Positions 652 through 20,524 of a DNA stretch of 64,000 bases are shown piece by piece. Source of the DNA: Desulfatiglandales bacterium (lineage in GTDB: Bacteria; Desulfobacterota; DSM-4660; Desulfatiglandales; Desulfatiglandaceae); NCBI GenBank assembly GCA_963662465.1, contig OY759599.1:96001-160000 (forward strand), in the 5' to 3' direction. Position numbers and translations under genes: made by a program. The first letter of the stretch is position 1; every line of letters begins with the position of its first letter. The notes under the pieces were generated by a model. That model was not told the DNA's origin, did no database searches, and worked only from the letters and a program-made list of their open reading frames with translations.

Positions 652-821
652 GATCCGCAGATTACGCAGATTACACGGATTAGGTGTCTCGCGCCAAGAC
701 GCCAAGGCGCAGAGAAGAGAGGATAGATGACGGGGGACGGAGGGCGGAAGACAGAGGACGGAGGACGGAGGACGGAGGACGGAGGTCGGATGTCGGAGGT
801 CGGAGGTCGGAGGACAGAGGG
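652..821 (+). repeat. Repeat stack: family A (9-mer GCAGATTAC), family B (8-mer CGCCAAGA/CGCAGAGG), family C (7-mer GAGGACG/GAGGTCG)
   Basis: gatccgcagattacgcagattacacggatt, then tctcgcgccaagacgccaaggcgcaga, then about 12 heptamers. Confidence 0.9.
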
Positions 822-963
822 TGAGAAAATCTAACGGGTTGAAGCCGGAATTTACACTCACCATCAGGCGTTGCAACATGTACTCGATAGCAACTTGCAG
901 CCTATCCAAAGGGCTTCTTGCTGCCACGATCCTGGTGCATTATCTGTCGGAAAGGATCCGAGT

Positions 964-1299
964 TCAATCTGCGGAAATAAGCCGTTGAGCTATGGCGCAG
1001 GCCTTTGATAAGGTTTTCTTGTCAACGCCGCCGATTTTTTTTACCAATCGTTTTTTGTCCAAACTTCTTAATTGATCCAGCATGATCTTTGAATCCTTGT
1101 CAAGACCGGCTGTACCACGGGGGATGAATACTTCAAATGGGTATATTTTCCGGGTTGTCGAGGTTATGGGCGCAACAATCAACCTGGAAGAGTTGTGATT
1201 CATGACATTTACCGAAATGACCAGCCCAGGCCTGGTCTTGCCGATTTCAGTATGTAGGGTCGGGTCCAAATTGACAAGATATACGTCTCCCTGATCCAT
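964..1299 (-). CDS. mazF: PemK/MazF-family toxin
   Basis: GDVYLVNLDPT..EIGKTRPGLVIS, APITS, DQLRSLDKKRL. Confidence 0.92.
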   Translation of the reverse strand: MDQGDVYLVNLDPTLHTEIGKTRPGLVISVNVMNHNSSRLIVAPITSTTRKIYPFEVFIPRGTAGLDKDSKIMLDQLRSLDKKRLVKKIGGVDKKTLSKACAIAQRLISAD

Positions 1300-1542
1300 T
1301 TAGTCCCACCCCTCTGGGTCCAAGGATTCCCATACTCTAATATCGGCCTGACGGTCTTTGTCTTTTGCAGCCTCTGAAAATGCCAGGCTCAATGCCTTTT
1401 CCTCTTCCTGCCGTATTTTTTTTGTGATTTCGTTTTTTAATAACTCATTGACAACCCTGCTTTTCTGGCGATTCGGAACCAGTTCCCCAAACCTTTCCCA
1501 TATTTGGCGCTCAATGGTTAAATTTACCCTGATCTGTTCCAT
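1300..1542 (-). CDS. Putative RHH antitoxin of the adjacent MazF
   Basis: 80 aa, N-terminal beta-strand (IRVNLTI), acidic tail, abuts the toxin gene. Confidence 0.75.
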   Translation of the reverse strand: MEQIRVNLTIERQIWERFGELVPNRQKSRVVNELLKNEITKKIRQEEEKALSLAFSEAAKDKDRQADIRVWESLDPEGWD

Positions 1543-1757
1543 CCGTCCCTCCTTCCTCTATTTGTGTTGCCTGCTGGATGTATACTAATACAGCAAAACC
1601 AGAAGGGCAAGGGATTAACGGGGTCAGGCTTTCCTTATTGTCGTTTTGAGGAATTGGTGTTTTGGAAAAGGGATTGCGAAAAGTAGAGGGCGCCTAATCT
1701 CGCTGGCATCAACGATGATGCGGCCGCATGGATAACTGAAAAAGGCAGTTTTACGTT

Positions 1758-2060
1758 CTAAGTGTTTCGGCCAGAGTCTACAAGGGCCATCTCGATTCGT
1801 TTTCCCAGTACAGCGGCAGCTTTGCTGATTGTGGCGATGGTTACGTTGTGTGCTTCTTCATTGAGAAGACGTTCCAATGCTGATCTGCTCGTTTTCATTC
1901 GGGTTGCCATCTCTGTTTTTCGAATACCTTGTTCTTCCATCATGGTTTTTAGCTGGTGGGCAAGGTTTTTTTTCAAGGCATTCAACTGAACTTGCTCATA
2001 GATGCCCTCTTCCTGGAGGAAATCATCAAAGCTCTGCCCTACATGGTGTTTCTTTAGCAT
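1758..2060 (-). CDS. XRE/HTH antitoxin
   Basis: HVGQSFDDFLQEEG and MKTSRSALERLL; downstream of a RelE-like gene. Confidence 0.8.
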   Translation of the reverse strand: MLKKHHVGQSFDDFLQEEGIYEQVQLNALKKNLAHQLKTMMEEQGIRKTEMATRMKTSRSALERLLNEEAHNVTIATISKAAAVLGKRIEMALVDSGRNT

Positions 2061-2063
2061 TTC

Positions 2064-2351
2064 TTAGCCCTCCATTTCTCTTTTTCTGCTTTTGGCCAAT
2101 TCAAGATCCCCTTTCGGAATCTTTTTTGATTTTTTGATGAATCCATGGAGCAGGTACAATTGATCAGATTCAATGAAAAAGAGTACCCGCGCTGCTCGGC
2201 CGTTCGAAATCCGAGAGCGTATTTCAAAATTTCCGTTTCCGAGAGGCTTACATCTTGGGGGACCTACAGGCCAATGATATTCCACATTGGCGATATCTCC
2301 GCCGATCTCTATTCTGTCCTCTTTGGCCAATGACAATAGCCATTCCCGGAC
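2064..2351 (-). pseudogene. RelE/ParE (Gp49-like) toxin, N-terminus apparently replaced by family C repeats
   Basis: VREWLLSL..WPVGPP..LLHGFIKKSKKIP; the frame runs into the repeat tract at about 2355 with no RBS/start. Confidence 0.7.
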
Positions 2352-2356
2352 AGTAA

Positions 2357-2528
2357 AGACAGATGTCAGAGGTCGGAGGTCGGAAGTCAGGAAGGGACAG
2401 AGGGCGGAGGTCGGAGGGCGGAGGACGGGAAAAGACAGAGGTCGGATGTCGGATGTCGGAGGTCGGAGGTCGGAGGTCGGGGGTGAGGGGGCTGAGTTTT
2501 GGGTTCTGGGTTATGGATTTTGAGTTAG
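2357..2528 (+). repeat. Repeat stack: family C heptamers then family D (TTTTGAG/TTTTGGG heptamers)
   Basis: gtcggaggtcgga tract followed by gagttttgggttctgggttatggattttgagtt. Confidence 0.88.
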
Positions 2529-2588
2529 AAATGGAAGAAAATTGACGAAAGGACTTTTGATTTTGCTTTGTTGGATGTTTAGGCGAAG

Positions 2589-2879
2589 TTACGCTCGATG
2601 TGCGTGCAGCTTTAGCCCAAGGGCCTTAATGACCTTGAGGATCGTCCCGAATTCCGGGTTTCCATTCTTTGAGAGCGCTTTGTAAAGGTTCTCCCTTGCC
2701 AGTCCGGTATCGCGTGCCAGCTGTGACATACCTCTGGCTCGCGCGATGACCCCCAATGCATGAGCGATGAATGCGGGGTTGTCCCCTGCTTCTTCGAGGC
2801 AGGCATCCAAATATGCTGCCATATCGTCATCGGTTTTCAGATATTCGGCGGTATCGTATCGGGTAAATTTTTCAGACAT
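2589..2879 (-). CDS. Addiction module antidote protein (HTH)
   Basis: YDTAEYL..AAYLDA..ALGVIARARGMSQLARDTGLARENLYKALS.NGNPEF. Confidence 0.9.
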   Translation of the reverse strand: MSEKFTRYDTAEYLKTDDDMAAYLDACLEEAGDNPAFIAHALGVIARARGMSQLARDTGLARENLYKALSKNGNPEFGTILKVIKALGLKLHAHRA

Positions 2880-3180
2880 TCTTCAACCCCTTCCATTTCT
2901 TGGCAATCGTTTGTGCCTGCTGGATATCCCGGTCCTGTGAGGATTTGTCACCACCACACAGCATCACCAACATGTTCAACTCGGGCTGCATGCAGTAAAG
3001 CCGATAGCCTGGTCCGTAGTGAATGCGCAACTCGGACAGCCCATGCCCAATGGGGCGAATATCACCCAGGTTGCCTAAGCCCACACGATCAAGTTTTGCA
3101 TGGATCCTCATGCGTGCCCGACGGTCTTTCAGATTCCCTAACCATTGAGAAAAAGTGGCACTTTCGATAATTTCAATCAT
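2872..3180 (-). CDS. Addiction module killer protein (RelE/ParE family)
   Basis: GNLGD..GLSELRIHYGPGYRLY..LCGGDKSSQDRDI. Confidence 0.9.
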   Translation of the reverse strand: MIEIIESATFSQWLGNLKDRRARMRIHAKLDRVGLGNLGDIRPIGHGLSELRIHYGPGYRLYCMQPELNMLVMLCGGDKSSQDRDIQQAQTIAKKWKGLKNV

Positions 3181-3273
3181 ATCTGGCTTTGTAACTTACA
3201 AAATACAATAAGTCAAGCAAGAACAATTTGAGGGTTCGTTTCTTCACAGGAGACGACGGAAGACGGAGGATGG

Positions 3274-3552
3274 ATGACAGCGGGTCGGCTGATAGCGTGG
3301 CCGTCCTTTCATTCGACGTTTGGTATTGTTGAGGCGGTGGAGGGGGGGAGGTTTCCGGATAGAGGCGATCCCGGTGAAATACGCTTCGCTGTCACTATCA
3401 TGAGTTTCACGGGACGAGTGATGACGGTGCATCCGCAGCGTTGGACGGATGATCCGGTGGCGTGGACGAAGGAGCTGGTTTGGCAGAATTGTAAGAATTT
3501 AGTGAAACGTATTGTTGTTCGCAGATTACGATCCGCAGATTACGCCGATTGA
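3274..3552 (+). pseudogene. C-terminal remnant of a polysaccharide-locus protein carrying a palindromic insert
   Basis: FHSTFGI..TVHPQRWTD..WTKELVWQN; bounded by family C and A repeats; palindrome cccggtgaaa...tttcacggg at 3370-3413. Confidence 0.5.
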
Positions 3553-3601
3553 CGCAGATTAAAGTTCTTGCGCAAAAAATGCAAAGAATAAGAAGAAATT
3601 A

Positions 3602-4819
3602 ATGTCAAGAAATGAATATAGGGTCTTTCTTGTGGTGGGTGCGCGGCCGAATTTTATGAAGATTGCGCCGATTGTCAGAGCGCTTAAAGCACAAAGCGAT
3701 CCGCAGATTACGCCGATTACACAGATTGATTGGAAGATTGTGCACACCGGGCAGCATTATGATTATGAAATGTCGCAGGCGTTCTTCGATGATTTGAAGA
3801 TTCCCAAACCCGATCATTTCCTGGAGGCGGGGCCGGGGAGCCATGCGGAGCAGACGGCCAGGATTATGGTCAGTTTTGAGAAGCTTTGCGAGCAGGAGCG
3901 GCCGGATCTGGTTGTGGGCGATGTCAATTCCACCCTGGCGTGCTCCGTGGTGTCCAAAAAGATCGGCATTGAAGTGGCCCACGTGGAGGCCGGGTTGCGG
4001 AGCTTTGATCTGTCCATGCCCGAGGAAATCAACCGGATGGTGACGGACGCTATAGCGGATTATTTTTTTGTGACGGAGCGAAGCGGGGTAGAGAACCTCA
4101 AAAAAGAAGGAAAGCCCGAAGACCGGATCTTTTTTGTCGGGCATGTGATGATTGATAATCTCTTGCATCAGCTGGAGGAAGTCCGCACGAATCATTTTCC
4201 TTTTGAGCATCGGGCGCTGAAGGATAGTCTTGACGAGTATATTTTCATGACGCTGCACCGGCCCGCCAACGTGGATGACAAGGAAATTCTTAGCGGGATC
4301 GCGGGGACTTTGGCCCGCGTGGCAAAGCATGTGCCCGTCATTTTTCCGGCACATCCCAGAACCGGGAAGATGCTGGCGCATTTCGGGATTGAGCTGCCGG
4401 AAAATATTCATCGGCTGCCGCCTTTGGGGTTTCGAGAGTCCTTGTACCTGTGGAAAGATGCCAAAATGGTGATCACCGACAGCGGGGGGCTGCAGGAAGA
4501 GACCACGGCCCTGGGTGTTCCCTGCCTGACGTTGAGGGAAAATACCGAGAGACCGGTCACGGTAACGGAAGGGACGAATCAGCTGGTGACGGTTAATGAT
4601 CTCGAGGACCGGGTACTGGAAATCCTGGCGGGAAGAGGAAAAAAGGGTCGGGTGCCGGAGTTGTGGGACGGAAGAGCGGCGGAGCGGATTGTGGGGGTTT
4701 TGGCGGAAATTTCACAGAGGTCGGATGTCGGATGTCGGAGGGCCGGAAGTAGGTGGTTAGAAGCGTTAGGCGTGCCCTTTTCCCCTAGAGCTTTTCTGTT
4801 GTTTATGGATAAAATATAG
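3602..4819 (+). CDS. wecB: UDP-N-acetylglucosamine 2-epimerase (non-hydrolysing)
   Basis: VVGARPNFMK, HTGQHYD, HVEAGLRS, MPEEINR, TDSGGLQEE, RENTERP; family A insert near 3698-3728; C-terminus extended through family C repeats. Confidence 0.93.
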   Translation: MSRNEYRVFLVVGARPNFMKIAPIVRALKAQSDPQITPITQIDWKIVHTGQHYDYEMSQAFFDDLKIPKPDHFLEAGPGSHAEQTARIMVSFEKLCEQERPDLVVGDVNSTLACSVVSKKIGIEVAHVEAGLRSFDLSMPEEINRMVTDAIADYFFVTERSGVENLKKEGKPEDRIFFVGHVMIDNLLHQLEEVRTNHFPFEHRALKDSLDEYIFMTLHRPANVDDKEILSGIAGTLARVAKHVPVIFPAHPRTGKMLAHFGIELPENIHRLPPLGFRESLYLWKDAKMVITDSGGLQEETTALGVPCLTLRENTERPVTVTEGTNQLVTVNDLEDRVLEILAGRGKKGRVPELWDGRAAERIVGVLAEISQRSDVGCRRAGSRWLEALGVPFSPRAFLLFMDKI

Positions 4820-4873
4820 AAAAGCCAAACCAAATATGATCATTATCAACCCACCTAAGATGACAGAATACAT

Positions 4874-5071
4874 CTATGCCTCCTTTTCGATAAATATGGC
4901 TAATAAATATACGAAAACAGAAATAATTACGCCTAAAAAAACCAATATCGGGTTTATTTTAAGTTGATGAAACAAAGGTGCAATGACTGAAGTGGCGAAA
5001 ATGATCTTGCCAGTATCAGTTAGAATGTCTGCAATCCTTTTCTTTTGTTTTTCGTTCAGAATCATAGCCAT
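4874..5071 (-). CDS. Small two-TM membrane protein
   Basis: 65 aa, AT-rich, two hydrophobic helices. Confidence 0.55.
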   Translation of the reverse strand: MAMILNEKQKKRIADILTDTGKIIFATSVIAPLFHQLKINPILVFLGVIISVFVYLLAIFIEKEA

Positions 5072-5171
5072 TCGCTTTCCATTTCTTTAACTTTATACTC
5101 AGATTGGAGTTGTGTCAATTTAAAAAGAAGCTTCTGGACGGAGGGCTGAGGTCGGAGGTCGGAGGACGGAG

Positions 5172-5379
5172 GACAGTGTTGAGTTTTGGGTTTTGAGTTT
5201 TGAGTTGAAGGGAAAGGGCGGAAGACAGTTTTGAGTTTTGGGTTTTGAGTTTTGAGTTGAAGGGAAAGGGCGGAAGACAGTTTTGAGTTTTGGGTTTTGA
5301 GTTTTGAGTTGAAGGGAAAGGGCAGAAGATAGTTTTGAGTTTTGGGTTTTGGGTTTTGAGTTGAAGGGAAAGGACGGAG
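5172..5379 (+). repeat. 52-bp tandem repeat x4 built from family D and family C units
   Basis: Units start at 5172, 5224, 5276, 5328: gacagttttgagttttgggttttgagttttgagttgaagggaaagggcggaa. Confidence 0.95.
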
Positions 5380-5454
5380 GACGGAGGGCGGAAGACAGAG
5401 GTCGGAGGGCCTCTCCCTACTGGGCATGGAGATATGGAGGCAGCGTCTCAGGGT

Positions 5455-5820
5455 CTAGTCGATCTCGAGTACCAGCTTAAGGGCTTCGACAACCTCTTCC
5501 ATTCGGCGTGGCGGCATTGTGCCAACCAACTGGGGTTTTTTTGTCTTAGGATCGTAAAATCTTTTAGGATCCAGGGAGCGCATCTGGAAACAGAGAAATA
5601 CTGTATCTTTGGGAAGGCCCGTCTCAGCTGATGGCACACGTACATTTGTGGGGTAGTCTCTTGGCACATTCCGCGCATCTGTGCCCACTACAACTGAAAC
5701 AACGAGCGGTTGTTTATTTATGGCGTCGCTTGATATCACGAGGACTGGTCTGCGGCCCGCCTGCTCCCGACCTTTAATCGGGTTCAAATTTACCAGATAA
5801 ATTCCGCCGCGCTTGATCAT
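5455..5820 (-). CDS. mazF: PemK/MazF-family toxin
   Basis: RGGIYLVNLNPIKGREQAGRRPVLVISSD, FQMRSLDPKRF. Confidence 0.9.
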   Translation of the reverse strand: MIKRGGIYLVNLNPIKGREQAGRRPVLVISSDAINKQPLVVSVVVGTDARNVPRDYPTNVRVPSAETGLPKDTVFLCFQMRSLDPKRFYDPKTKKPQLVGTMPPRRMEEVVEALKLVLEID

Positions 5821-5823
5821 AAT

Positions 5824-6087
5824 TCACAAACCATCGTTTTCCGCTTCCGTAAACTCCTCGGACAAAACAGAACACACATCCCGGATTGCAGGGTCATCGG
5901 CCATTTCAGCCATAGCTGTTTCAAATTGATATTTTTTTTGACGTTTTGTGAAATCGATCAAAATGAAGGTGACCAGGCGATTGAAGTTATCCCGGAGTTC
6001 AGGAGGCGCTATAGTGCGCAATTCTTCAACCAATTCATTTGGAAGTGCGATGCTGCGACGGATTGTCTTTTTTGCCGTATTTTTCAT
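5824..6087 (-). CDS. Putative RHH antitoxin
   Basis: Start reassigned to MKNTAKKTIRRSIALP after a GAGGG RBS; the extra N-terminus in the ORF track is translated repeat DNA. Confidence 0.75.
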   Translation of the reverse strand: MKNTAKKTIRRSIALPNELVEELRTIAPPELRDNFNRLVTFILIDFTKRQKKYQFETAMAEMADDPAIRDVCSVLSEEFTEAENDGL

Positions 6088-6302
6088 TTCACCCTCTTTG
6101 TAACCATAATCATGCACATAAAAAGTGTTGATGTCAACATGGAAATTGTTCATGGAAGAATCCAGAGGTTGGGAAGGGACAGAGGGCAGGGATGACGGAG
6201 GACGGAAGGCAGAGGACGGAGGACGGAAGGTAGAACAAGTGGATGATCTGATGGATGGCTGATAAGCTGATGGATAATAATCATATGGAAGTTCTGTTCT
6301 TG

Positions 6303-6332
6303 TTGACAAATCATATCACCTGGTGGTACACT
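6303..6332 (+). promoter_or_regulatory. Sigma70-like promoter with overlapping operator palindrome for the relE-HTH pair
   Basis: TTGACA-18 bp-TACACT; palindrome tatcacc-t-ggtggta. Confidence 0.6.
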
Positions 6333-6340
6333 CAGCGACA

Positions 6341-6727
6341 ATGAAAAAAGTTTTCAGAACCCGAACTTTCACCCGCTGGATGCGAAAGACTGGTCTGACC
6401 GACGAAATGCTTTGCCAGGCGGTTTCTGAGATGATGCAAGGGCTTGTGGACGGCGATCTGGGTGGCAACTTGCTGAAGAAGCGGATTGGCCTGTCCGGCC
6501 GGGGAAAACGTGGCGGCGGTCGAACGATTGTTGCCACCAATCGTTGTGACCGCTGGTTTTTCTTGTACGGCTTTGAAAAGAACGAACGCGCCAATATCAG
6601 CAAGGATGAAATCAAGGCGCTTCGGGAGTTAGCCGGACAATACCTGGCGTTTGACGACAAACAGATTGAATGGGCAGTCCGTAGCGGGAAATTCATGGAG
6701 GTGAATTTTGACGACAACAAAGCGTAA
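6341..6727 (+). CDS. RelE/HigB-family toxin
   Basis: FRTRTFTRW..DGDLGGNLLKKRI..GKRGGGRTI..LYGFEKNERANI. Confidence 0.9.
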   Translation: MKKVFRTRTFTRWMRKTGLTDEMLCQAVSEMMQGLVDGDLGGNLLKKRIGLSGRGKRGGGRTIVATNRCDRWFFLYGFEKNERANISKDEIKALRELAGQYLAFDDKQIEWAVRSGKFMEVNFDDNKA

Positions 6728-7028
6728 CAGCCGAATTTTGAAAGAAGTTCACGAAATGGCAAGTGACCTGAACGAGATTGGGTTGATCGACAAACGGCGG
6801 ATGCGGGAATTTGACGCTCTGTGCAACTTGGACGTCGAGGAAATACCGCCCCAAAAGATCAAACAGTTGCGTGAGGAGGCGCATATCAGTCAAGCTGTTT
6901 TTGCCGCTGTGCTGAACATCAGTTTGTCCACCATTCAAAAGTGGGAGATCGGCGACAAGAAACCCAGCGGCCCATCCCTGAAGCTGTTGAGCCTTATTGA
7001 ACGTAAAGGTTTGGAAGCTGTACTCTAA
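6708..7028 (+). CDS. HigA-like XRE antitoxin
   Basis: SQAVFAAVLN..QKWEIGDKKPSGPSLKLL. Confidence 0.9.
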   Translation: MTTTKRNSRILKEVHEMASDLNEIGLIDKRRMREFDALCNLDVEEIPPQKIKQLREEAHISQAVFAAVLNISLSTIQKWEIGDKKPSGPSLKLLSLIERKGLEAVL

Positions 7029-7138
7029 AATCCGATCCGAACCCCGGTGACGGAGGACGGAGGGCGGAAGACGGAGGACGGAAGGGCGAAAAGGTGAGAA
7101 GTGGCAGAGGTTCCATACAGCTAATGCCAATAACCCAT

Positions 7139-7511: not shown

Positions 7512-7650
7512 GGCCCTGAACTGCAGTTTTGAGTTTTGAGTTTTGAGTTAAAGGAAACGTCCTGATTATGGGGGGTGATGGGAAGATCTTTAAAGACAGT
7601 TTTGGGTTATGGGTTAGGGAACAGCAGTTTTGGGTTTTGAGTTTTGAGTT

Positions 7651-7821
7651 ATGAGTGAAAGGAAGATTGATGCGCGGACTTTTGAGTTTGCTCTGGTTGT
7701 GGTGGATGCGTACAAATTTCTTCTGGGGAAAAAGGAGTTTGTGCTTTCGAAGCAGTTTTTAAGGGCTGGTACTTCGATCGGTGCGAATGTGACGGAGGCC
7801 CAAGCTGCCCAAAGCACTTAA
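7651..7821 (+). pseudogene. Four-helix-bundle protein (23S rRNA IVP-like), truncated at 56 aa
   Basis: My translation: MSERKIDARTFEFAL..KKEFVLSKQFLRAGTSIGANVTEAQAAQST*; ATG directly follows family D heptamers. Confidence 0.85.
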
Positions 7822-7917
7822 TGGGGGACGTTGGCAGTTCTGTTAGTTTATTAGACAGGATCAACAGGATCAACAGGATAAAAGAAAAGAGTTATCAGTA
7901 TCGTTATCCATTTCGGT

Positions 7918-8724: not shown

Positions 8725-8728
8725 GGCG

Positions 8729-9385: not shown

Positions 9386-9968
9386 CAAACCCAATGAATC
9401 AGCTAAATTCTGAAGAAATGAAACATGTCGGCGGAATTCCGCCCGTTGTTCTGGGTGTGGTGGATTTCTGTTTGCTGAACCTGGCGTTTTTTCTGCTGAA
9501 TTACTGGAAACGGGGATCTTTTGAGTTGAGCCCCATCTATGGGAAGCTGCTGCTGGCCTTTTCAAGAAGAGAATTGCGATGCCTGGACAGGGAAAACGTG
9601 GGGGGTGGAGGAGCTTTCTCACAAGCCTGGTGGATCGAAAAGGCATTGACGCAGTTGCCTGATCTAAAAAAAAGTAACTCGCGCAGAGACGCCAAGACGC
9701 AAAGAAGAGAAGTTTTTTTGTTTTTCTCTGCGTCTCCGCGTCTCTGCGCGAGAATATAGAGACTTTCTTATAAGAAACAGATTCAAACATATCTTTGGCT
9801 TACGGGTTGCAGGCTGGGGTATCTGTTGAATTTCGGTGGGGCCCTGATGAAACAGGGTATTACCAGGGCTGTCAATAATCTTGAAGAATAAATTATCTCG
9901 CGCAGAGACGCGGAGGCGCAGAGGGAAGAAGGGTTTTTTGGTTTTTCTTTGCGTCTCTGCGCGAGAAT
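9386..9968 (+). pseudogene. Collapsed duplicate of the 10.1-13.1 kb unit (sugar transferase 5', RelE fragment, HTH 3', hairpin B, GxxExxY 3', hairpin B)
   Basis: 9624-9757 matches 12508-12643; 9770-9891 matches 12915-13036; 9386-9562 matches about 10095-10269. Confidence 0.85.
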
Positions 9969-12098: not shown

Positions 12099-12101
12099 AT
12101 T

Positions 12102-12180
12102 ATCTCGCGCAGAGCCGCAGAGGCGCAGAGAGGGAAAGGATTTTTTGTTTTTTCTTTGCGACTTAGCGTCTTTGCGCGAG
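12102..12180. repeat. Family B hairpin
   Basis: tctcgcgcagagccgcagaggcgcagag ... ctttgcgacttagcgtctttgcgcgag. Confidence 0.9.
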
Positions 12181-12546: not shown

Positions 12547-12562
12547 TCTAAAAAAGAAGTAA

Positions 12563-12638
12563 CTCGCGCAGAGACGCCAAGACGCAAAGAAGAGAAGTTT
12601 TTATTGTTTTTCTCTGCGCCTCAGCGTCTCTGCGCGAG
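12563..12638. repeat. Family B hairpin, left flank of GxxExxY gene 1
   Basis: ctcgcgcagagacgccaagacgcaaag ... ctctgcgcctcagcgtctctgcgcgag. Confidence 0.92.
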
Positions 12639-12652
12639 AATATAGGTTTTTT

Positions 12653-13036
12653 ATGACGGAAAATGAGATTGGGACGATTGTGGTTGATGCGGCTGTGAAG
12701 GTTCATATGGCGCTGGGTCCGGGTCTTTTGGAAAGCGTCTACGAGATTGTTCTCGCTCATGAGCTTTCAAAGAGGGGACTGCATGTGGAAAGGCAGATTC
12801 CCATTCCCATACAATATGATCGGATCAAGTTTGATGAAGGTTTTAGGGCAGATATCATTGTAGAAAAAAAAGTAGTGCTTGAACTGAAATCTGTTGAGAA
12901 GATTACGCCTGCGCATAAGAAACAGATTCAAACATATCTTCGGCTTACGGGTTGCAGGCTGGGGTATCTGTTGAATTTCGGTGCGGCTTTGATGAAACAG
13001 GGTATTACCAGGGCTGTCAATAATCTTGAAGAATAA
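12653..13036 (+). CDS. GxxExxY protein (PD-(D/E)XK fold)
   Basis: LGPGLLESVYE, FRADIIVE..VVLELKS, QTYLRLTG..LGYLLNFG. Confidence 0.93.
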   Translation: MTENEIGTIVVDAAVKVHMALGPGLLESVYEIVLAHELSKRGLHVERQIPIPIQYDRIKFDEGFRADIIVEKKVVLELKSVEKITPAHKKQIQTYLRLTGCRLGYLLNFGAALMKQGITRAVNNLEE

Positions 13037-13040
13037 ATTA

Positions 13041-13123
13041 TCTCGCGCAGAGACGCAGAGGCGCAGAGAGAAAAAGGGCTTTTTTTGTTTTTTTTCTTAG
13101 CGCCTTGGCGTCTTTGCGCGAGA
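13041..13123. repeat. Family B hairpin, right flank of GxxExxY gene 1
   Basis: tctcgcgcagagacgcagaggcgcagag ... cttagcgccttggcgtctttgcgcgaga. Confidence 0.92.
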
Positions 13124-13536: not shown

Positions 13537-13569
13537 ATGACTACGGTTCTTGTTTAAGTAAATAAAATG

Positions 13570-13596
13570 GCCGGCCTTTGGGTCGGCTTTTTTTTT
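13570..13596 (+). terminator. Intrinsic terminator
   Basis: gccggcc-tttg-ggtcggc followed by T9. Confidence 0.7.
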
Positions 13597-13731
13597 GATC
13601 CACAGATTACGATCCACAGATTACGCAGATTACGCAGATTACAGACCTCAATATTCTGACAGGATTAACAGGATTAACAAGATAAAAGAACATGGATGTA
13701 AGTATCCTGTAAATCCTGTAAATCCTGTCAA
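13597..13731. repeat. Family A tract followed by an inverted pair of family E (9-mer CAGGATTAA)
   Basis: gatccacagattac x2, gcagattac x2; tgacaggattaacaggattaacaagata ... tatcctgtaaatcctgtaaatcctgtca. Confidence 0.9.
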
Positions 13732-13768
13732 AAAACAATGGGGAAGCAGGTAGCGGGGAGGGAGCATT

Positions 13769-16441
13769 ATGATAAGGATTTTTTGGTTGGGATTGTTGTG
13801 TTTGGTTTTACCGAATGTGGCAACGGGTGAGGTGGTAAAAGGGATTTACGGGGTGCCGTCTATTGCGGAACGGGACCCCTCGAGTTATGTGGGAGATATG
13901 GAAAAGGCCGGGGTGAATGCCGTTTTTGTGAAGCCGGATCGGGATACGGTGAAATGGTTCAAGGACAGAGGGTTTCAGGTGTTTGTTTCCATTGATGCTT
14001 ATGGTGGGTCGCGGGCATGGAAACAATTTCCGGATTCCCGTCCGGTGTTGGCGGATGGGTCTCTTTTGGGGGAAAACCCGGAATATGCCTGTCATGGTGG
14101 CGCATGCCCGAGCCATGAGGGGTGGCAGCGGGAGAGGCTTTCATATATCGCTGGATTGATCAAGGATTTCGAGGGGCAGGGTTTGTTCATTGATGGGATC
14201 TGGCTGGATTATATTCGGTATCCGGGTCGGTGGAGCGTTTTGGATCCGAAGATTCCGGATACCTGTTACTGCGAGAGATGTTTGGGTAAATTTTCAAAAG
14301 AGATGGGGATTGAGTTTCCCATAGGGTTCTCGCGCAGAGACGCAAAGACGCAGAGAAGGGAAGAAGGGCAGAGGTCGGATGTCAGCGGTTGGGCCGTGGA
14401 GGACGAAAAAGATGGGATGATTGGATGGGTGGCAGGGAGCAACACAAAGGAGGTGTCTCGGTGGATCAAAGAGAACTGTCCTTATGAGTGGATGGTGTGG
14501 AAGAAACGGCAGATTAACGGTTTTGTGGAAAAAGTGAGGGGGGTGTTGAATGAGAAATCGCCGGATCGCCGACCACTTTTAGGAATTTTCCTGGTTCCCT
14601 GGACAAAAGGGGAAAGGGGGAACGGGGTTTCCTACAGCTTTGCTCAGGATGGGTTTGAACTGGCGAAATATGCGGATGTGATTTCGCCCATGGTGTATCA
14701 CAAGAAGGTGGGGCGGTCGGAAGCGTGGGTGGGGGTTATGACCCGGTATTATGAGGAGCGGGTTTCGTGCGAGGTTTGGCCGATTGTTCAGGCCATGGAT
14801 TGCACGGTTGAGGAATTTGCGGCGGTTATGCGGTATGCTGGTGAGGGAGGGGCGGATGGCGTTCTGGGGTTTCCGTTTAGGGCTGTGGAGAAGGCGGGGT
14901 TGTGGGAGGGGTTTCGGGGATTTAACCGGGCGGTGAATTTGCTCAAATCCACAGATTACGTGGATTACAGTGATAAGAAGGTAAGAGGATTAGAAGGTGA
15001 GAAAGTTAGTGAAGAAAGTGGGGTGATTGAGATTCGGCCCGAGTATGGGGAATGTGGGGAGTGGGTGGTTCCGTTGCGGGGTTGTGAGGCGGGGGTCGTC
15101 TATGAGTTTCGGGGGGAATTTTGGCAGCGGGTTTGGGAGAATGGGGCTTATCCGATGGTGTTGCTTTGGGGGAGGGAGTTTTTATTGAATACACACTGGA
15201 AGAGCAAGGTGTTTCAACCGCTGCGGGTGTATGTGAGGTGTCCGGGTGAGGTGAGGGATCAGACGTTTCGGTTTAAGAACTGCAACCCCGAGAAAGAAAT
15301 ACGGATGCGTAATCCTGAGTTGAGGCGGTTTTATGGGTTTGCTCCGGAACCGGGCGTGCCTTTGAAGCGGGATTTTTTTGATGAACATTTTTTCCCCATC
15401 GGGGTTTATGGGGCCAACCTGAAAAACCTGGAGGAGATTAAAAAGCTGGCCATCAATACGGTGGTGCTGGGTGGGACGGGAAAAAAGCTCAGGGAACAGG
15501 TGGAAAAGTGTCATGAGGTGGGGTTGCGGTATGTGCTGTCGACGCCCCATGATCCGGATCGGTTGCCGGTGTATCTGGATCAGATTTCGGGGTATGTGAG
15601 GCCTTACGATATGGCGTTTTATGTGAATGATGAACCGGGGATTCATTCGTTTCCGACGGGGAAGGCGGTGGATGTGAACCGGTTGATCAAGGAACGGTTT
15701 CCGGATTGTGCCACCTGTATGGCCATTGTGCGGCCGCAGGTGTGTGGGGAGTATAAGGATGGGGCCGATTTCTTCATGCTGGATCAGTATCCGGTACCGT
15801 TTATGCCATTTGGGTGGCTTTCCGATAGTATGGATTATTGTGCGGCGTGTTTGGGATCCGCAGATTACGCAGATTACGCGGATTACACTGAAAAGAAGGT
15901 TAAAGGTTTAGCAAGGGGTCGGCTGGCGGCGGTGATTCAGGCATTTGGGGGAGAAACGCGTTTTGATCATCCGAGGTTGCCGACTTGGCAGGAGATGGAT
16001 TGTCTGGCGTTTTTGTCGGTGGTGCATGGGTCGCGGGGGATTTTCTTTTATACGTATTCGTGGATCGGGAAGACGGAGGAGGGTCGGGAACGGCTGGGTC
16101 GGGTGGTGGGCCGGTTGAACCAGGTGTACCCGTGGCTGGTGGTGGAGAATTCAGGGGAGAAGGTTGGGGTGGAGATGCTTTCGGGCAATCGGTTTGATCC
16201 GAAGGGACGGGCGGCGGTGCAGTGTTGTCTTAAGCGGAAAGGGGATGAATTGATGGTGTTTGCGGTGAATACTATTGGAACTGGGGTGGAGTGTTTGCTA
16301 GAGGCTGAGAAGGTTAGAGGTTTAGAAGGTAAGAAGGTTAGTGAGGTGTTTTCGGGGGAGGATTATGTGGTTCGGGATGGGAAGATTCGGGTTCGGCTGG
16401 GGCCTTATGGGGTCAAGGCTTTTATCCACAGATTACACTGA
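13769..16441 (+). CDS. Secreted glycoside-hydrolase-like protein, probably two TIM-barrel domains, with several in-frame repeat inserts
   Basis: Signal peptide; DGIWLDYIRYPG, DVISPMVYH; second domain FFPIGVY..YVNDEP..LDQYP. Confidence 0.65.
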   Translation: MIRIFWLGLLCLVLPNVATGEVVKGIYGVPSIAERDPSSYVGDMEKAGVNAVFVKPDRDTVKWFKDRGFQVFVSIDAYGGSRAWKQFPDSRPVLADGSLLGENPEYACHGGACPSHEGWQRERLSYIAGLIKDFEGQGLFIDGIWLDYIRYPGRWSVLDPKIPDTCYCERCLGKFSKEMGIEFPIGFSRRDAKTQRREEGQRSDVSGWAVEDEKDGMIGWVAGSNTKEVSRWIKENCPYEWMVWKKRQINGFVEKVRGVLNEKSPDRRPLLGIFLVPWTKGERGNGVSYSFAQDGFELAKYADVISPMVYHKKVGRSEAWVGVMTRYYEERVSCEVWPIVQAMDCTVEEFAAVMRYAGEGGADGVLGFPFRAVEKAGLWEGFRGFNRAVNLLKSTDYVDYSDKKVRGLEGEKVSEESGVIEIRPEYGECGEWVVPLRGCEAGVVYEFRGEFWQRVWENGAYPMVLLWGREFLLNTHWKSKVFQPLRVYVRCPGEVRDQTFRFKNCNPEKEIRMRNPELRRFYGFAPEPGVPLKRDFFDEHFFPIGVYGANLKNLEEIKKLAINTVVLGGTGKKLREQVEKCHEVGLRYVLSTPHDPDRLPVYLDQISGYVRPYDMAFYVNDEPGIHSFPTGKAVDVNRLIKERFPDCATCMAIVRPQVCGEYKDGADFFMLDQYPVPFMPFGWLSDSMDYCAACLGSADYADYADYTEKKVKGLARGRLAAVIQAFGGETRFDHPRLPTWQEMDCLAFLSVVHGSRGIFFYTYSWIGKTEEGRERLGRVVGRLNQVYPWLVVENSGEKVGVEMLSGNRFDPKGRAAVQCCLKRKGDELMVFAVNTIGTGVECLLEAEKVRGLEGKKVSEVFSGEDYVVRDGKIRVRLGPYGVKAFIHRLH

Positions 16442-16452
16442 TTACGGGGATT
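16424..16452 (+). repeat. Family A arm, left flank of GxxExxY gene 2
   Basis: atccacagattacactgattacggggatt; also supplies the stop codon of the upstream gene. Confidence 0.88.
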
Positions 16453-16455
16453 AGG

Positions 16456-16827
16456 ATGGAAGATGAGAGGTCTTATAAGGTTATTGGGGCTGCTATGGAG
16501 GTGCATAAGGGGTTAGGTTGTGGTTTTCTTGAAGCAGTGTACCAGGAGGCACTTGAGAGGGAGTTTAGAATTCAGGGAATTCCTTATATTTCGCAGTATG
16601 AGATTCAAATTGTTTACAAAGGGGTCGTACTGAACAAAACGTATATCGCGGATTTTGTTTGTTATGAAAAAATAATTGTGGAAATTAAAGCTTTATCAAA
16701 AATGTCTGGTATTGAGGCTGCGCAGGTCATAAACTACCTGAAAGCGTCAAATTTTAAGATAGGTCTTCTTCTCAATTTTGGAGCCAAATCCCTGGAATAT
16801 AAACGCTTCATCCATAACAATCAGTAA
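16456..16827 (+). CDS. GxxExxY protein (PD-(D/E)XK fold)
   Basis: LGCGFLEAVYQEAL, YIADFVCYEKIIVEIKA, QVINYLKA..GLLLNFG. Confidence 0.93.
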   Translation: MEDERSYKVIGAAMEVHKGLGCGFLEAVYQEALEREFRIQGIPYISQYEIQIVYKGVVLNKTYIADFVCYEKIIVEIKALSKMSGIEAAQVINYLKASNFKIGLLLNFGAKSLEYKRFIHNNQ

Positions 16828-16858
16828 AATCCGTGTAATCTGCGTAATCTGCGGATCC
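16828..16858 (-). repeat. Inverted family A arm, right flank of GxxExxY gene 2
   Basis: aatccgtgtaatctgcgtaatctgcggatcc; its reverse complement matches the solo arm at 652-681. Confidence 0.92.
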
Positions 16859-16875
16859 TAATCAGTGGGTAAAAA

Positions 16876-19119
16876 ATGGAAAAAGCAGCATACATCATAT
16901 ACCTAACCATCCTCCTCCTCAGCATCTTCATGTTCGGGGCGGTGCATACCTACATGTACACCCTGATGACCCTTGGGGTGTTGGCGGCGACTGTTTTCCT
17001 TCTTTGGAAGAATGTTCGGAAGGACTACAAAAGCAGGGAATACCGGTTTCGGGTGCCCCGGAACAGTTTGCATGTGGGGTTTGCGGTGCTGCTGGGATTC
17101 CTGGTTTTACAGATGGTTCCCCTGCCTTCTTTTGTGGTGGATTTTCTGTCGCCGGAAGCATCGGTGGTGGCTGAAAAATCGTTTTCGGCGGTGGAATTGG
17201 TGAATAGCCCTGAGGCGGAAAAGCCGTGGTTTTTCCTTGCGGCCTATGGGTATCCGGTTCGCATGTCGATGGTTCGGTTTGTGGTTTACGGGTTGTTTTT
17301 CTTTGGTTTCCTTCAGACCCTTCAGTCACGCAGGCGAATTAATGTGGCGGTTTCGTTTCTGTTGGCCATGGGGTGTTTTGAGGCCCTGTATGGGCTCATG
17401 GAGACCTATTCCGGGTCGCACAAGGTGTTGTGGTACACCATGAATTATGCCAAAGAACGGGTGAAAGGCACTTTTATCAATGGCAATCATTTTGCCGCTT
17501 ACATGGCCATGGGCGTGGTTCTGGCGGCGGCCTTTGCGGGGGCCATTGCGCCGGAAAAACGTGTCAGCCGAAATAATTCCAGACGGAAGCCAAGTCTGAG
17601 TGCAAGGGTCGCCTCTTTTCTGGAAGGGGAAGAGGCTTTGTTCAAGCGGGTTCTGGTGGGGTTTTCCGGGGTGCTGATGGGGATCGGGTTGATCTTTTCA
17701 GCCTCCCGGGGCGCTATTTTGAGCTGGGCCGGGGCTATGTTTCTGATGGGGTTGCTGCTGGTTTTGCGGAAACAATATCGACGAAAAGGGGTTTTGCTTA
17801 TCGGTATTTTTCTGTTGATTTGCGGTTATGCGGTTCAAATCGGTGTGGAGTATCCTCTGGAGCGGTTTATGAAGATGGAATCGGGGATGGAAAGCCGGTC
17901 GCGCTATGCCGCCAGGACCATGGACCTTTTTGAGGATTTTCAAGTGGCCGGCGTGGGGGTCGGGAATTTCCAATATGCGTTTCCCAAATACCAGTCGGAG
18001 AAAGATAAGAAAAAGTACTATATTTTTGCGCATAATGACTGGGCCCAATATATGGCGGAGGCGGGTATTTTAGGGCTGGGCTTGTTGCTGGGTGGGGTCG
18101 GGTATTACCTTTTCAAGACCCTCAAGCTGTGGGCCAGGCGGAAGGATGCCTATGCGGTGTGCCTGGGGGTGGCGCCGGTTGTGGCACTTGTTTATATCGG
18201 CCTGCATTCCTATGTGGAATTTACGCTGCATACTCCGGCAAACGTGCTCATTCTGTTGTCCATCATGGCCATCGGGCATGCGGCCCTTCATTTGGAACGG
18301 CATCATCGGCGGGATGTGATGAGTTACCGGTATTACAATCTTCCTTTGAAATATAAGGGCGGGGTGGTGTTGCTGTTGATTCTGGGACTGATCGGGTGGA
18401 CGGGGTATTGGAGTATTCGGCATTTCATGGGGGAGGTGTATTGCAATACGGTGCCTAACAGCACCTTGAACCGGGATAAGCGGCCGCCGGTGGGCGAGGT
18501 GGTGCGGGCGGTTGAGTGGGATTCGGGGAATGCTGCTTACTGGTTTAAGCTTGGATCCGCAGATTACGCAGATTACACAGATGGAAAAGGAAAAGATGTC
18601 TCGCGCAAAGGCGCAAAGGCGCAAAGAGGGGAAAGGCAGGGGTCAGAGGTCAGAAGTCTGAAGTCAGAGGACAGAGGTCTGAAGTCGGTAACAGAAATCG
18701 GCGAAAATCTGTGTAATCTGCGGATAATGGCTTTGGAGAGATCTGTGGAACTGAATCCTTTTGACGCGCAGTACCATCTTCGGTTGGGGTGGGAATATGC
18801 GCATTTGTGGCAGGAAAAGGATTATCATGTGAGATGGCTGCCGGCGGCGGATATCAGCATGGATCGGGCGGCTTATTTTGCGGGGGTGAAGAACCCGCAC
18901 CTGCATCAAGAACTGGGGAATTACTGGACCATGCGGAGCAGGTCGGTGATGCCCAATGATCCATTGCACCATGAGGCGTGGGCGAAGGCTTGTTGGCATT
19001 ACCACAAAGCGCAAAGTCTTGAGACAGGAGGGGCGTTGAAGCGGATGAAGAAGGAAATACGGGGGTATGTTTGGAATTTTTATCCGGATGAAGACTATAT
19101 CGCGCAAGTAATCAATTAG
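16876..19119 (+). CDS. O-antigen ligase (Wzy_C) family membrane protein with TPR-like C-terminus
   Basis: GTFINGNHFA, SASRGA, GVGVGNF, AHNDWAQYMAEAGILG, many TM helices. Confidence 0.85.
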   Translation: MEKAAYIIYLTILLLSIFMFGAVHTYMYTLMTLGVLAATVFLLWKNVRKDYKSREYRFRVPRNSLHVGFAVLLGFLVLQMVPLPSFVVDFLSPEASVVAEKSFSAVELVNSPEAEKPWFFLAAYGYPVRMSMVRFVVYGLFFFGFLQTLQSRRRINVAVSFLLAMGCFEALYGLMETYSGSHKVLWYTMNYAKERVKGTFINGNHFAAYMAMGVVLAAAFAGAIAPEKRVSRNNSRRKPSLSARVASFLEGEEALFKRVLVGFSGVLMGIGLIFSASRGAILSWAGAMFLMGLLLVLRKQYRRKGVLLIGIFLLICGYAVQIGVEYPLERFMKMESGMESRSRYAARTMDLFEDFQVAGVGVGNFQYAFPKYQSEKDKKKYYIFAHNDWAQYMAEAGILGLGLLLGGVGYYLFKTLKLWARRKDAYAVCLGVAPVVALVYIGLHSYVEFTLHTPANVLILLSIMAIGHAALHLERHHRRDVMSYRYYNLPLKYKGGVVLLLILGLIGWTGYWSIRHFMGEVYCNTVPNSTLNRDKRPPVGEVVRAVEWDSGNAAYWFKLGSADYADYTDGKGKDVSRKGAKAQRGERQGSEVRSLKSEDRGLKSVTEIGENLCNLRIMALERSVELNPFDAQYHLRLGWEYAHLWQEKDYHVRWLPAADISMDRAAYFAGVKNPHLHQELGNYWTMRSRSVMPNDPLHHEAWAKACWHYHKAQSLETGGALKRMKKEIRGYVWNFYPDEDYIAQVIN
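18552..18726 (+). repeat. In-frame nested insert A-B-C-A(inverted) inside the ligase gene
   Basis: Translates as GSADYADYTD..SRKGAKAQR..QGSEVRSLKSEDRGLKS..ENLCNLRI. Confidence 0.88.
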
Positions 19120-19351
19120 AAAAATTACCCATTTCGGCTCAAGGCCGTTTTGGGTAAAGGATCAAGGAGAAAGACCTTATTTAGAAGGGGCTGAACCGCT
19201 TAAATTTGGCATGGTTGCTCGGCGTGAGAGATAGGGCGTGTTTTGATACACCTTGAAATCAGTTGGTATGAATTGATTTAACGCTTGCGCTCCGGTTCTT
19301 TATGTTATATTTTTGTATAACTATCGTCAAGCGAATGCAAGGAGGAATCAA

Positions 19352-19612
19352 ATGATAAGTGTAACACTGAGAAAGCTTGGTGGATCGGTTGTAATGGCTG
19401 TCCCTGTGCAGATTCTGACTATGCTGAATATCGGTGCCGGGAGCCATGTGAATGTGAATGTTGTAGACGGTAAGTTGGTCATTGAGCCCAGGGCTAAACC
19501 GCATTTCACGCTTGCCGAACTGCTGGCCCAGTGCAGCGATGAAAACATGGCGCTAACCGATGAGGATCGCGAGTGGCTCGATACCCGGCCGGTCGGTAAG
19601 GAAATGCCATGA
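19352..19612 (+). CDS. mazE: AbrB/MazE-family antitoxin
   Basis: TLRKLGGSVVMAVP..FTLAELLAQC..W....PVGKE. Confidence 0.9.
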   Translation: MISVTLRKLGGSVVMAVPVQILTMLNIGAGSHVNVNVVDGKLVIEPRAKPHFTLAELLAQCSDENMALTDEDREWLDTRPVGKEMP

Positions 19613-19953
19613 AGCGCGGAATTCCGGAACGCAGCGATATCCTGCATCTCGATCTTGATCCTGCGCTGGGAAAGGAGCAGCAGGGGCAGCGTTATGTACT
19701 GGTCCTCACCATCTCCGATTTCAACCGTTTTGGGTTGGCGTTGGTTGCCCCTATTACGTTGGGCGGTCAGTTTGCCCGCGAGAACGGTTTCACTGTATCG
19801 ATGATGGGATCGGGTACGAATACTCAGGGCGTTGTACTCTGCAACCAGGTACGGATGCTTGATTTCAAAAAACGCAATGCAAAGGCCATTGAATCGGCGC
19901 CTGAAATCGTTATGGATAATGTCCTGGCTCGAGTCAGGGCATTACTGGAATAG
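19609..19953 (+). CDS. mazF: MazF/ChpB-family toxin
   Basis: DPALGKEQQGQRYVLVL..APIT.GG..GVVLCNQVRMLD. Confidence 0.9.
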   Translation: MKRGIPERSDILHLDLDPALGKEQQGQRYVLVLTISDFNRFGLALVAPITLGGQFARENGFTVSMMGSGTNTQGVVLCNQVRMLDFKKRNAKAIESAPEIVMDNVLARVRALLE

Positions 19954-19985
19954 CCATTTTTTCCGCGCAATATAGAAATAGGGGA

Positions 19986-20270
19986 GTGGATATGGATGCA
20001 CATCGACTTAGAGATGAAAAACATGGCGGGTATTGGCTCATGATTCTTGGGTGCCCTTTACCGGGAAAGCATGACCTGAAAGACCCTTTGGCCGGATTGA
20101 GCGGGCCGTCATTTGCCACCTGTGCCACATGCGAAAATCAGGTCGGGGAAGATGTTGCGCTTGGTGGTGCGGATGGAGATTATAACGGAGCGGAACTCTT
20201 CCCTGATCGACTGACGTGCTTAATTGAAACCAAAGCCGATCCACAGATTACGCAGATTGACGCAGATTAA
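19986..20270 (+). CDS. Hypothetical protein ending in a family A repeat
   Basis: RBS GGGGAG; CxxC motif; C-terminus DPQITQIDAD is repeat-encoded. Confidence 0.4.
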   Translation: MDMDAHRLRDEKHGGYWLMILGCPLPGKHDLKDPLAGLSGPSFATCATCENQVGEDVALGGADGDYNGAELFPDRLTCLIETKADPQITQIDAD

Positions 20271-20430
20271 TTGTTTCGCGTAAGGCGCTGATAAGGAGGA
20301 AATAGAAGATAGGAAAGGGAAATAGGAAAGGATAGAAGGTCAGAGATCCACCCCAGACCGGTGGTCCGGGGTCAGGGGTCGGGAATCGGGGGGAGGACTA
20401 GGGGTCAGTAGCCGGTGGTCAGGGAGGGAA
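20238..20430 (+). repeat. Repeat stack: A, degenerate B, C-like heptamers, leading into a four-helix-bundle gene
   Basis: gatccacagattacgcagattgacgcagatt; ttcgcgtaaggcgc; ggggtcaggggtcgggaatcgg. Confidence 0.75.
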
Positions 20431-20434
20431 GGGG

Positions 20435-20524
20435 ATGGTTGCTAAATCGGCGAAAGATTTGCGGGTTTATAAGAAGGCATATGCGTTGGCTATGGCGATA
20501 TTCCATTCCGAGCAATACCACTGA
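20435..20524 (+). pseudogene. Four-helix-bundle protein N-terminal remnant
   Basis: My translation: MVAKSAKDLRVYKKAYALAMAIFH, then unrelated sequence. Confidence 0.75.

What the first reader, a model, noticed from the sequence alone, without database searches (positions are those of the whole stretch)
652..20524. Cognate repeat families paired with GxxExxY and four-helix-bundle genes: a candidate REPIN/RAYT-like mobile system
Seen: GxxExxY gene 2 (16456-16827) is bracketed by inverted family A arms, and GxxExxY gene 1 (12653-13036) by family B hairpins. The four-helix-bundle remnants start right after family D (7651) and C-like (20435) heptamers. Solo arms of the same families are scattered between and inside genes: A at about 652, 3521, 3698, 13597, 14947, 15854, 18552, 20238, 34420; B at about 687, 14328, 18599, 28115. 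Known: GxxExxY proteins have a PD-(D/E)XK fold with no established function, and RAYT genes are flanked by the REPs they spread. Inference: each small gene plus its own repeat forms a mobile unit that leaves or spreads non-autonomous arms and concentrates in polysaccharide loci.
Basis: partly seen in the sequence, partly recalled or inferred. Interest (0 to 1): 0.88.

Follow-up and report, generated by a model that had tools for sequence, protein, structure and literature searches.

The report
Swappable repeat-armed small-gene cassettes
Tiny genes for a nuclease-like protein or a four-helix protein each sit between their own type of inverted repeat arms, and related bacteria carry different gene-plus-arm units, bare arms or nothing at the very same spot, which points to a little-known kind of selfish mobile DNA that also writes short loops into working proteins.

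Summary
Arm type follows the protein clade, not the host: 67 GxxExxY genes need 14 label changes against 38.7 shuffled. For four-helix-bundle genes the link is weak (Mantel p 0.055). The junction that holds gene 2 here is empty in 7 of 20 orthologous loci; others carry a gene-1-type gene with B arms, four-helix genes with heptamer arms, or arms alone. In a congener gene 2 differs at 1 of 44 four-fold sites against 162 of 670 in its neighbours. Another GxxExxY clade has 21 gene-less 150-161 bp copies. It works like RAYT/REPIN but is not a member: PD-(D/E)XK fold, single arms not palindromic, arms often in frame. Best reading: selfish cassettes spread by nuclease-stimulated recombination at arms; no activity is shown, and arms also abound in genomes where no cognate gene was found. 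This scan noted the same architecture before in many other genomes; I found no paper on it.

The parts
652..829 (+). compound cluster: solo A arm, solo B arm, C heptamer array
   Evidence: (D1, D9, D16)
3529..3560 (+). solo A arm upstream of wecB
   Evidence: D20
3698..3727 (+). A arm read in frame inside wecB, at a length-variable position; present also in G119
5129..5417 (+). C and D heptamer arrays between toxin-antitoxin modules
7525..7650 (+). D heptamer arrays (left arm of four-helix cassette) with an abortive copy of the gene start
7651..7821 (+). four-helix-bundle gene, 5' half only (TIGR02436, PF05635)
9678..9967 (+). deleted copy of the gene-1 unit: B hairpin, last 41 codons of a GxxExxY gene, B hairpin
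12103..12180 (+). gene-less B hairpin after the sugar-transferase gene
12563..12639 (+). left B hairpin of gene 1
12653..13036 (+). GxxExxY gene 1 (127 aa, B clade)
13041..13122 (+). right B hairpin of gene 1
13597..13733 (+). solo A arm followed by a gene-less E hairpin
14329..14439 (+). 111-nt in-frame insert (B arm plus C heptamers) in the 890-aa gene; absent in G119
14947..15010 (+). in-frame A arm plus 8-mer repeats in a variable loop
15854..15886 (+). in-frame A arm; G119 has a C heptamer array here instead
16306..16342 (+). in-frame 8-mer repeats; G119 has an A arm here instead
16424..16452 (+). left A arm of gene 2; supplies the last codons and stop of the 890-aa gene
16456..16827 (+). 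GxxExxY gene 2 (123 aa, A clade), PD-(D/E)XK fold
16828..16857 (+). right (inverted) A arm of gene 2
   Evidence: I5
18552..18725 (+). nested in-frame insert in the Wzy_C-domain gene: A arm, B arm, C heptamers, inverted A arm; G119 has a second A arm in place of B and C
20238..20434 (+). solo A arm, degenerate B start, C-like heptamers
20435..20524 (+). four-helix-bundle N-terminal remnant (29 aa)
28117..28135 (+). solo B arm
34421..34449 (+). solo A arm

Best explanation
Each unit is a 0.45-0.55 kb selfish cassette: one small promoterless gene in the sense of its host operon, between arms made of about three tandem 8-10-mers (GxxExxY) or several 7-mers (four-helix bundle) in inverted orientation. 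SHOWN: cassettes are gained, lost and swapped as units at fixed operon junctions and protein loops; arm type follows GxxExxY clade; gene-less hairpins, solo arms and tandem arrays derive from them. INFERRED: the GxxExxY protein, a Cas4/RecB-like PD-(D/E)XK nuclease, cuts at or near paired arms of its own family (a cruciform or single-strand hairpin exposed during transcription), and host recombination repairs the break from another arm-bearing copy. That one process would copy a gene into bare arms (homing), delete it again, make tandem and abortive copies, nest one family in another and rearrange the polysaccharide genes between arms, with no target duplication. Four-helix cassettes share the layout and the sites but cannot cut DNA themselves; most likely their protein binds the arms and a host or neighbouring nuclease does the cutting.
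For: Same-site polymorphism of the gene-2 junction across 20 loci. Gene 2 nearly identical in G119 (1 of 44 four-fold sites) while neighbours differ at 162 of 670 (Fisher p 1.5e-4). Tree: A clade 9 of 9, F clade 12 of 12, B superclade 20 B plus 12 unclassified and no A, E or F; host families mixed in each clade. Invariant D66, E76, K78, fold match to Cas4 and restriction-type nucleases, more synonymous than replacement codon changes in two divergent paralogue pairs (40 vs 19, 56 vs 19). 21 gene-less copies of one element, 12 in tandem beside its gene. Ends of duplicated segments lie near arms more often than expected (34 of 119 intergenic ends vs 13% background; 10 of 66 coding ends vs 2%). 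Solo A, B and C arms outside the three main loci face with transcription 32 to 4. At least 4 A-pattern hits in 8 of 9 genomes with a gene at least 58% identical to gene 2, against 9 of 111 others.
Against: No activity is shown. Co-variation can arise from simple co-inheritance of a gene with its flanks. Seven genomes have 14-63 B arms without a close gene-1 relative, two of them in 8 or fewer contigs. 141 of 185 duplicated-segment ends are not near an arm. The loci are mosaic throughout (other segments 98-99% identical to G119), so the near-identity of gene 2 may be ordinary recombination. D and E solo arms show no sense bias. The four-helix Mantel test is not significant (rho 0.08, p 0.055). 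Three unrelated folds (PD-(D/E)XK, four-helix, GIY-YIG) occupy the same junction, which also fits a shared outside mobiliser. The other two paralogue pairs show no excess of synonymous changes (7 vs 9, 40 vs 43). How an arm first enters an arm-free site is not explained.
Confidence: 0.5

Rival explanations
1. The arms alone are the mobile unit, spread by a host or other trans-acting process (for example RNA-templated gene conversion or a Y1/RAYT-like enzyme), and the small genes are cargo caught between arms and co-inherited with them.
For: Three unrelated cargo folds at one junction; arms plentiful without a detected cognate gene; 30 Y1-family and 47 reverse-transcriptase matches in the genome; sense-strand polarity of solo arms.
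Against: Only 5 of 30 Y1 matches have an arm within 700 nt and none is bracketed by an inverted pair, against 9 of 12 GxxExxY and 9 of 11 four-helix matches within 200 nt (the three GxxExxY misses show E arms by eye). Cargo is not random: arm period and type sort by protein family and clade.
Confidence: 0.25
2. The pairing works at RNA level: the arms close a stem around the gene, as in 23S rRNA intervening sequences, for RNase III processing or translational control, and the protein binds its own arm repeats; movement between sites is ordinary recombination.
For: The arms of gene 2 pair to enclose the ORF in the predicted RNA fold; Coxiella IVS has a four-helix ORF in such a stem, cut by RNase III (PMC4990558, passages); genes are always co-oriented with the operon; polarity follows transcription (18 of 24 on lagging-strand genes, p 0.023).
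Against: The whole-cassette fold is only marginally better than shuffles (z -1.85); gene 1 and several E-clade genes lie between complete hairpins or same-direction arms, not inside one stem; an RNA role does not explain in-frame solo arms, tandem arrays or family swaps.
Confidence: 0.15
3. Host-beneficial contingency system: arms are kept as recombination sites that reshuffle surface-polysaccharide genes and toxin-antitoxin modules, with the nucleases as domesticated triggers.
For: 276 of 447 arms in three polysaccharide loci; duplicated segments often end at arms; toxin-antitoxin modules alternate with arms in window 1-9400.
Against: Arms and cassettes also sit in housekeeping operons (ispG-proS, ftsW-murG); many cassettes are truncated; concentration may reflect tolerance and high turnover of these loci.
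Confidence: 0.1

Closest known systems
REP/REPIN elements with RAYT (TnpA-REP) genes. Read: first third of PMC3337134, abstract of PMC8266576
   Same: A small gene flanked by cognate repeats; inverted doublets that fold into hairpins; tandem arrays; dispersed singlets; repeat and protein co-vary; several families in one genome.
   Different: Protein is PD-(D/E)XK or a four-helix bundle, not HUH; a single arm is a tandem repeat and not a palindrome; many arms are inside genes, in frame; the genes are multi-copy, move and replace each other.
ORF-bearing 23S rRNA intervening sequences (Coxiella, Leptospira; S23p, PF05635). Read: passages of PMC4990558
   Same: Four-helix-bundle ORF in the loop of a stem formed by terminal inverted repeats; described as selfish; mobility mechanism unknown.
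   Different: Here at mRNA operon junctions, not rRNA; arms are heptamer arrays; the same layout holds GxxExxY genes; gene-less arms are dispersed.
TAACTGA heptamer repeats of Beggiatoaceae, cyanobacteria and Bacteroidetes. Read: abstract and passages of PMC4679880
   Same: Intergenic heptamer arrays near start codons, oriented with the gene, some in frame; the T family here is the same or a very similar unit.
   Different: That paper's main text has no occurrence of 'helix bundle', 'intervening' or 'nuclease' and proposes translational regulation; here heptamers form inverted arms around a four-helix gene. Its supplements were not read.
Rickettsia palindromic elements and cyanobacterial small dispersed repeats (recalled; the latter paper is not held)
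   Same: Short repeats inserted in frame in protein loops and polymorphic between relatives.
   Different: As I recall them, no cognate gene was identified; I could not check whether any small dispersed repeat family equals these arms.
Free-standing homing endonucleases and MITEs (recalled)
   Same: Site-restricted gain with gene-conversion-like footprint; internally deleted non-autonomous copies with the same ends.
   Different: Not in an intron or intein; no DDE transposase; no target duplication seen; many unrelated sites are used.

Membership tests
RAYT/REPIN | Y1 HUH transposase as the associated protein | tested here: not met
   PF13366/TIGR04256 and PF05635/TIGR02436; model matches Cas4 and restriction-type folds
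RAYT/REPIN | Single repeat is an imperfect palindrome | tested here: not met
   Single A arms fold no better than shuffles (z 0.04 and -1.8); B and E single arms were not folded alone
RAYT/REPIN | Inverted doublets forming hairpins | tested here: met
   B and E doublets z -6.3 to -8.5; 23 E2 pairs
RAYT/REPIN | Predominantly extragenic | tested here: inconclusive
   14 of 33 A, 10 of 47 B and 20 of 73 C arms lie in predicted genes; E and D are almost all intergenic (my own rough gene calls)
RAYT/REPIN | Repeat co-varies with protein clade | tested here: met
   GxxExxY. Four-helix: weak
RAYT/REPIN | Protein cleaves cognate single-stranded repeat | not testable with these tools
   needs purified protein
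ORF-bearing rRNA intervening sequence | Located in an rRNA gene | tested here: not met
   cassettes lie between or inside protein-coding genes
ORF-bearing rRNA intervening sequence | ORF enclosed by a terminal stem | tested here: met
   gene 2; 28 of 37 four-helix and 47 of 67 GxxExxY loci have inverted flanks
ORF-bearing rRNA intervening sequence | Excision by RNase III | not testable with these tools
   needs RNA data
IS/MITE | Terminal inverted repeats and internally deleted copies | tested here: met
   515-522 bp gene-bearing and 150-161 bp gene-less copies
IS/MITE | Target-site duplication | tested here: inconclusive
   none visible at filled/empty junctions, but relatives are 75-90% identical
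IS/MITE | Known transposase family encoded | tested here: not met
PD-(D/E)XK nuclease | Core fold and D..ExK catalytic residues | tested here: met
   pLDDT 93.5; D66, E76, K78 invariant in 57 sequences; Foldseek E 7e-4 to Cas4 SSO0001; VIA Z 8.2, rmsd 2.8 over 94 residues to BpuSI

The most novel reading that the evidence does not exclude
A transposase-free class of minimal selfish elements in which small proteins of unrelated folds (GxxExxY nuclease, four-helix bundle, GIY-YIG) each recognise their own tandem-repeat arms, home into one another's sites, compete for the same operon junctions and protein loops, and thereby both insert new peptide loops into proteins and reshuffle surface-polysaccharide loci. 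It would give the first function for two very large families of unknown role and an origin for the orphan heptamer repeats of many phyla.
Probability: 0.35. Interest if true: 0.9.

Novelty: new variant of a known kind. Interest (0 to 1): 0.72.

Why it matters
PDDEXK_3/GxxExxY is listed as of unknown function (PMC3424549, passage) although one search here returned 7989 relatives among 8000 scored, and the four-helix family is known mainly from rRNA intervening sequences and as an Avd look-alike (PMC10053308, passage). This genome holds several cognate pairs at once, so specificity can be tested directly: gene-1 and gene-2 proteins against A and B arms. If the reading holds, it names a mover for widespread short repeats, a source of in-frame loop insertions, and a compact (about 125 aa) sequence- or structure-specific nuclease family.

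Tried and rejected
Excision or circles: contigs of 4 runs laid on 12000-20600 showed no listed joint that removes gene 1 or gene 2 cleanly; 21 joints were not shown and contigs drop rare forms, so this is no evidence. No RNA holder listed. No solved relative by sequence. Y1/RAYT-like genes as the arms' partners: not bracketed. Group II intron insertion-site check failed to reach the intron ends and gave nothing. A first breakpoint test (250 of 356) counted arrays and repeated pairs; I replaced it. The four-helix statistics and the tree included 7 wrong-strand rows; one search corrects them (p moved from 0.002 to 0.055) and the tree is not used. A census of arm-derived peptides across homologues was not done, so insert families are read by eye. 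Viral contigs: 12 relatives; 8 have inverted-flank scores of 14 or more and 4 distant ones (27-33% identity) do not. Literature: GxxExxY, 3 papers held and 2 listed, one passage read, incidental; searches listed no paper linking these genes to flanking repeats. Subscription journals and bioRxiv supplements were not searchable; the small-dispersed-repeat paper is not held.
Full report
Observation. The window is G000:C1:96001-160000 of an 8.16 Mb genome; named homologues are mostly from Desulfobacterota-type bacteria. Both GxxExxY genes, both four-helix remnants and all listed arms are present. The neighbours are wecB, a sugar transferase, vanZ, an 890-aa protein without a family match and a Wzy_C-domain gene; window 1-9400 is a run of type II toxin-antitoxin modules separated by heptamer arrays.

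Own genome. There are 12 TIGR04256 and 12 TIGR02436 matches. All 13 GxxExxY-like places printed and the pseudogene printed show arms of tandem 8-10-mers by eye, in five types that sort with the protein. Nine of 11 four-helix matches tested have heptamer arms within 200 nt, forward upstream and reverse-complement downstream, in four types; the two without belong to longer open frames. Ten motifs gave 447 arms against 8 in one shuffled genome; 309 fall in six 100-kb bins and 276 in three polysaccharide loci totalling 332 kb. The last 10 kb of the contig duplicates 91899-101959 at 99.5%, which inflates counts slightly. One clade shows the full non-autonomous series: two gene-bearing elements of 515 and 522 bp, 12 tandem 156-bp gene-less copies beside one of them, and 9 dispersed copies of 150-161 bp with the same ends.

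Do arms follow the protein? From 121 genomes of the order, gene 1 matched in 82. For 67 distinct GxxExxY genes with usable flanks, 47 have inverted flanks (score 14 or more) against 11% of mismatched pairs, 52 have a best period of 8-10, and flank similarity rises with protein identity (Mantel rho 0.21, p 0.001, pairs under 80% identity). On a tree, labels need 14 changes against 38.7 shuffled; the A clade is 9 of 9 (support only 80/52), F 12 of 12 (100/99), and the 32-row gene-1 superclade holds 20 B and 12 unclassified rows; two A-labelled and one F-labelled row lie elsewhere; host families are mixed within clades. Kin share labels, so this shows linkage, not recognition. For 37 four-helix genes, 28 have inverted flanks and 26 have period 7, but co-variation is visible only above 60% identity (rho 0.08, p 0.055, correcting).

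Do solo arms need the gene? The A pattern has 4 or more hits in 8 of 9 other genomes with a gene at least 58% identical to gene 2 and in 9 of 111 others (arms beside the gene are included, genomes are related and mostly drafts). For B, 6 of 8 genomes with a gene at least 65% identical to gene 1 have 7 or more hits, but 7 genomes have 14-63 hits without such a gene. The link is real but not strict.

Filled, empty and swapped sites. G119 shares window 13133-19023 at about 85%. Gene 2 differs at 1 of 44 four-fold sites; vanZ, the 890-aa gene and the Wzy_C gene at 11 of 60, 82 of 305 and 69 of 305, so the cassette was exchanged recently at this site, though the loci are mosaic in general. A 111-nt in-frame B+C insert at 14329 is absent in G119, and at 15854, 16306 and 18590 the two genomes carry different families in the same loop. 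Among 99 aligned homologues of the 890-aa protein (of 120 listed), two of these loops have a median of 18 residues against 55 and 37 here, and close relatives carry various repeat-like inserts (first 36 rows read by eye). Of 114 loci fetched, 70 had enough downstream DNA and 20 had the Wzy_C gene within 1.5 kb: 7 have a short plain spacer; L071 has the gene-2 allele already seen; L131 has a gene-1-type gene with B arms nested inside remnant A arms; L074, L075 and L128 have four-helix genes with heptamer arms of different units; L073 has A arms without a gene; L129 a lone reverse arm; L136 a gene-less element plus a GIY-YIG gene; L103 and L158 (one sequence) another hairpin; 3 are unclassified. 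Housekeeping junctions behave alike in 5 congeners: a C arm starts at a stop codon in two genomes and is absent in four; ispG-proS holds a B hairpin, a T-heptamer hairpin or almost nothing; another junction holds a B hairpin here and a four-helix remnant with its own heptamers in G119 (gene names read from sequence, not from a family scan). No target duplication was visible.

Protein. The gene-2 model (pLDDT 93.5) has the PD-(D/E)XK core with invariant D66, E76, K78 and Q90; best matches are Cas4 SSO0001 and restriction-type domains at Z about 8. A shared fold shows no function.

Polarity and breakpoints. Unpaired A, B and C arms outside the three loci lie in the sense of the local gene 32 to 4 and on the leading strand 27 to 20; D and E show no such bias. 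Selection against pyrimidine-rich reverse arms in mRNA could give the same bias (inference). Ends of duplicated segments lie near arms at 44 of 185 sites, two- to seven-fold above matched background.

Mechanism. Gain, loss, swap, nesting and tandem amplification are shown. Cutting at cognate arms followed by recombinational repair is the simplest single process that gives all of them without a transposase (inferred, 0.5). Arms moved by an outside factor with genes as cargo (0.25), an RNA-stem role (0.15) and a host contingency system (0.1) remain.

Known systems. It works like RAYT/REPIN (PMC3337134 first third; PMC8266576 abstract) but fails the enzyme and palindrome tests; it is built like an ORF-bearing rRNA intervening sequence (PMC4990558 passages) but lies in mRNA operons; its heptamers recall those of PMC4679880 (abstract, passages). 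Searches listed no paper on the pairing; subscription journals and unread supplements may hold one. Earlier notes of this scan report the same architecture in many other genomes; they are unchecked and not counted as support. What this locus adds is several cognate pairs side by side, five or more alternative occupants of one junction, and a recent same-site exchange.

Noticed in passing
window 1-9400: About eight type II toxin-antitoxin modules (PIN, PemK, Gp49-HTH, RelE-HTH) alternate with C and D heptamer arrays; the PemK module at 5371-5954 has a 97% copy at G000:C1:7107412 that also starts at a C arm.
   Followed up: partly
L075 7560-7850; L136 7420-7700; window 3365-3420: A GIY-YIG gene with short inverted ends sits inside a four-helix gene (L075) and beside arms (L136); gene-less hairpins of similar type occur in the window and inside an E arm of G119: a third cargo-and-arm family.
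   Followed up: partly
   Followed up: no
window 1-5959: 99.5-99.8% identical to the last 6-10 kb of the contig (G000:C1:8151577-8161625): real duplication or assembly artefact.
   Followed up: partly
G000:C1:1472482 (L216): A gene-less E2 element after gltX marks a synteny break against G119 and G109.
   Followed up: partly
G000:C1:7116743 and 6950779: Copies of a 439-aa reverse transcriptase lie next to or between arms.
   Followed up: no
window 7525-7650; L033, L037, L059, L075: Abortive copies: left arm plus the first 15-60 nt of the gene, then the arm again, as if copying restarted at the arm.
   Followed up: no
window 21500-36000: Minus-strand block with an AAA ATPase and a HerA/VirB4-like ATPase, probably part of an integrated element; holds one solo A and one solo B arm.
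   Followed up: no
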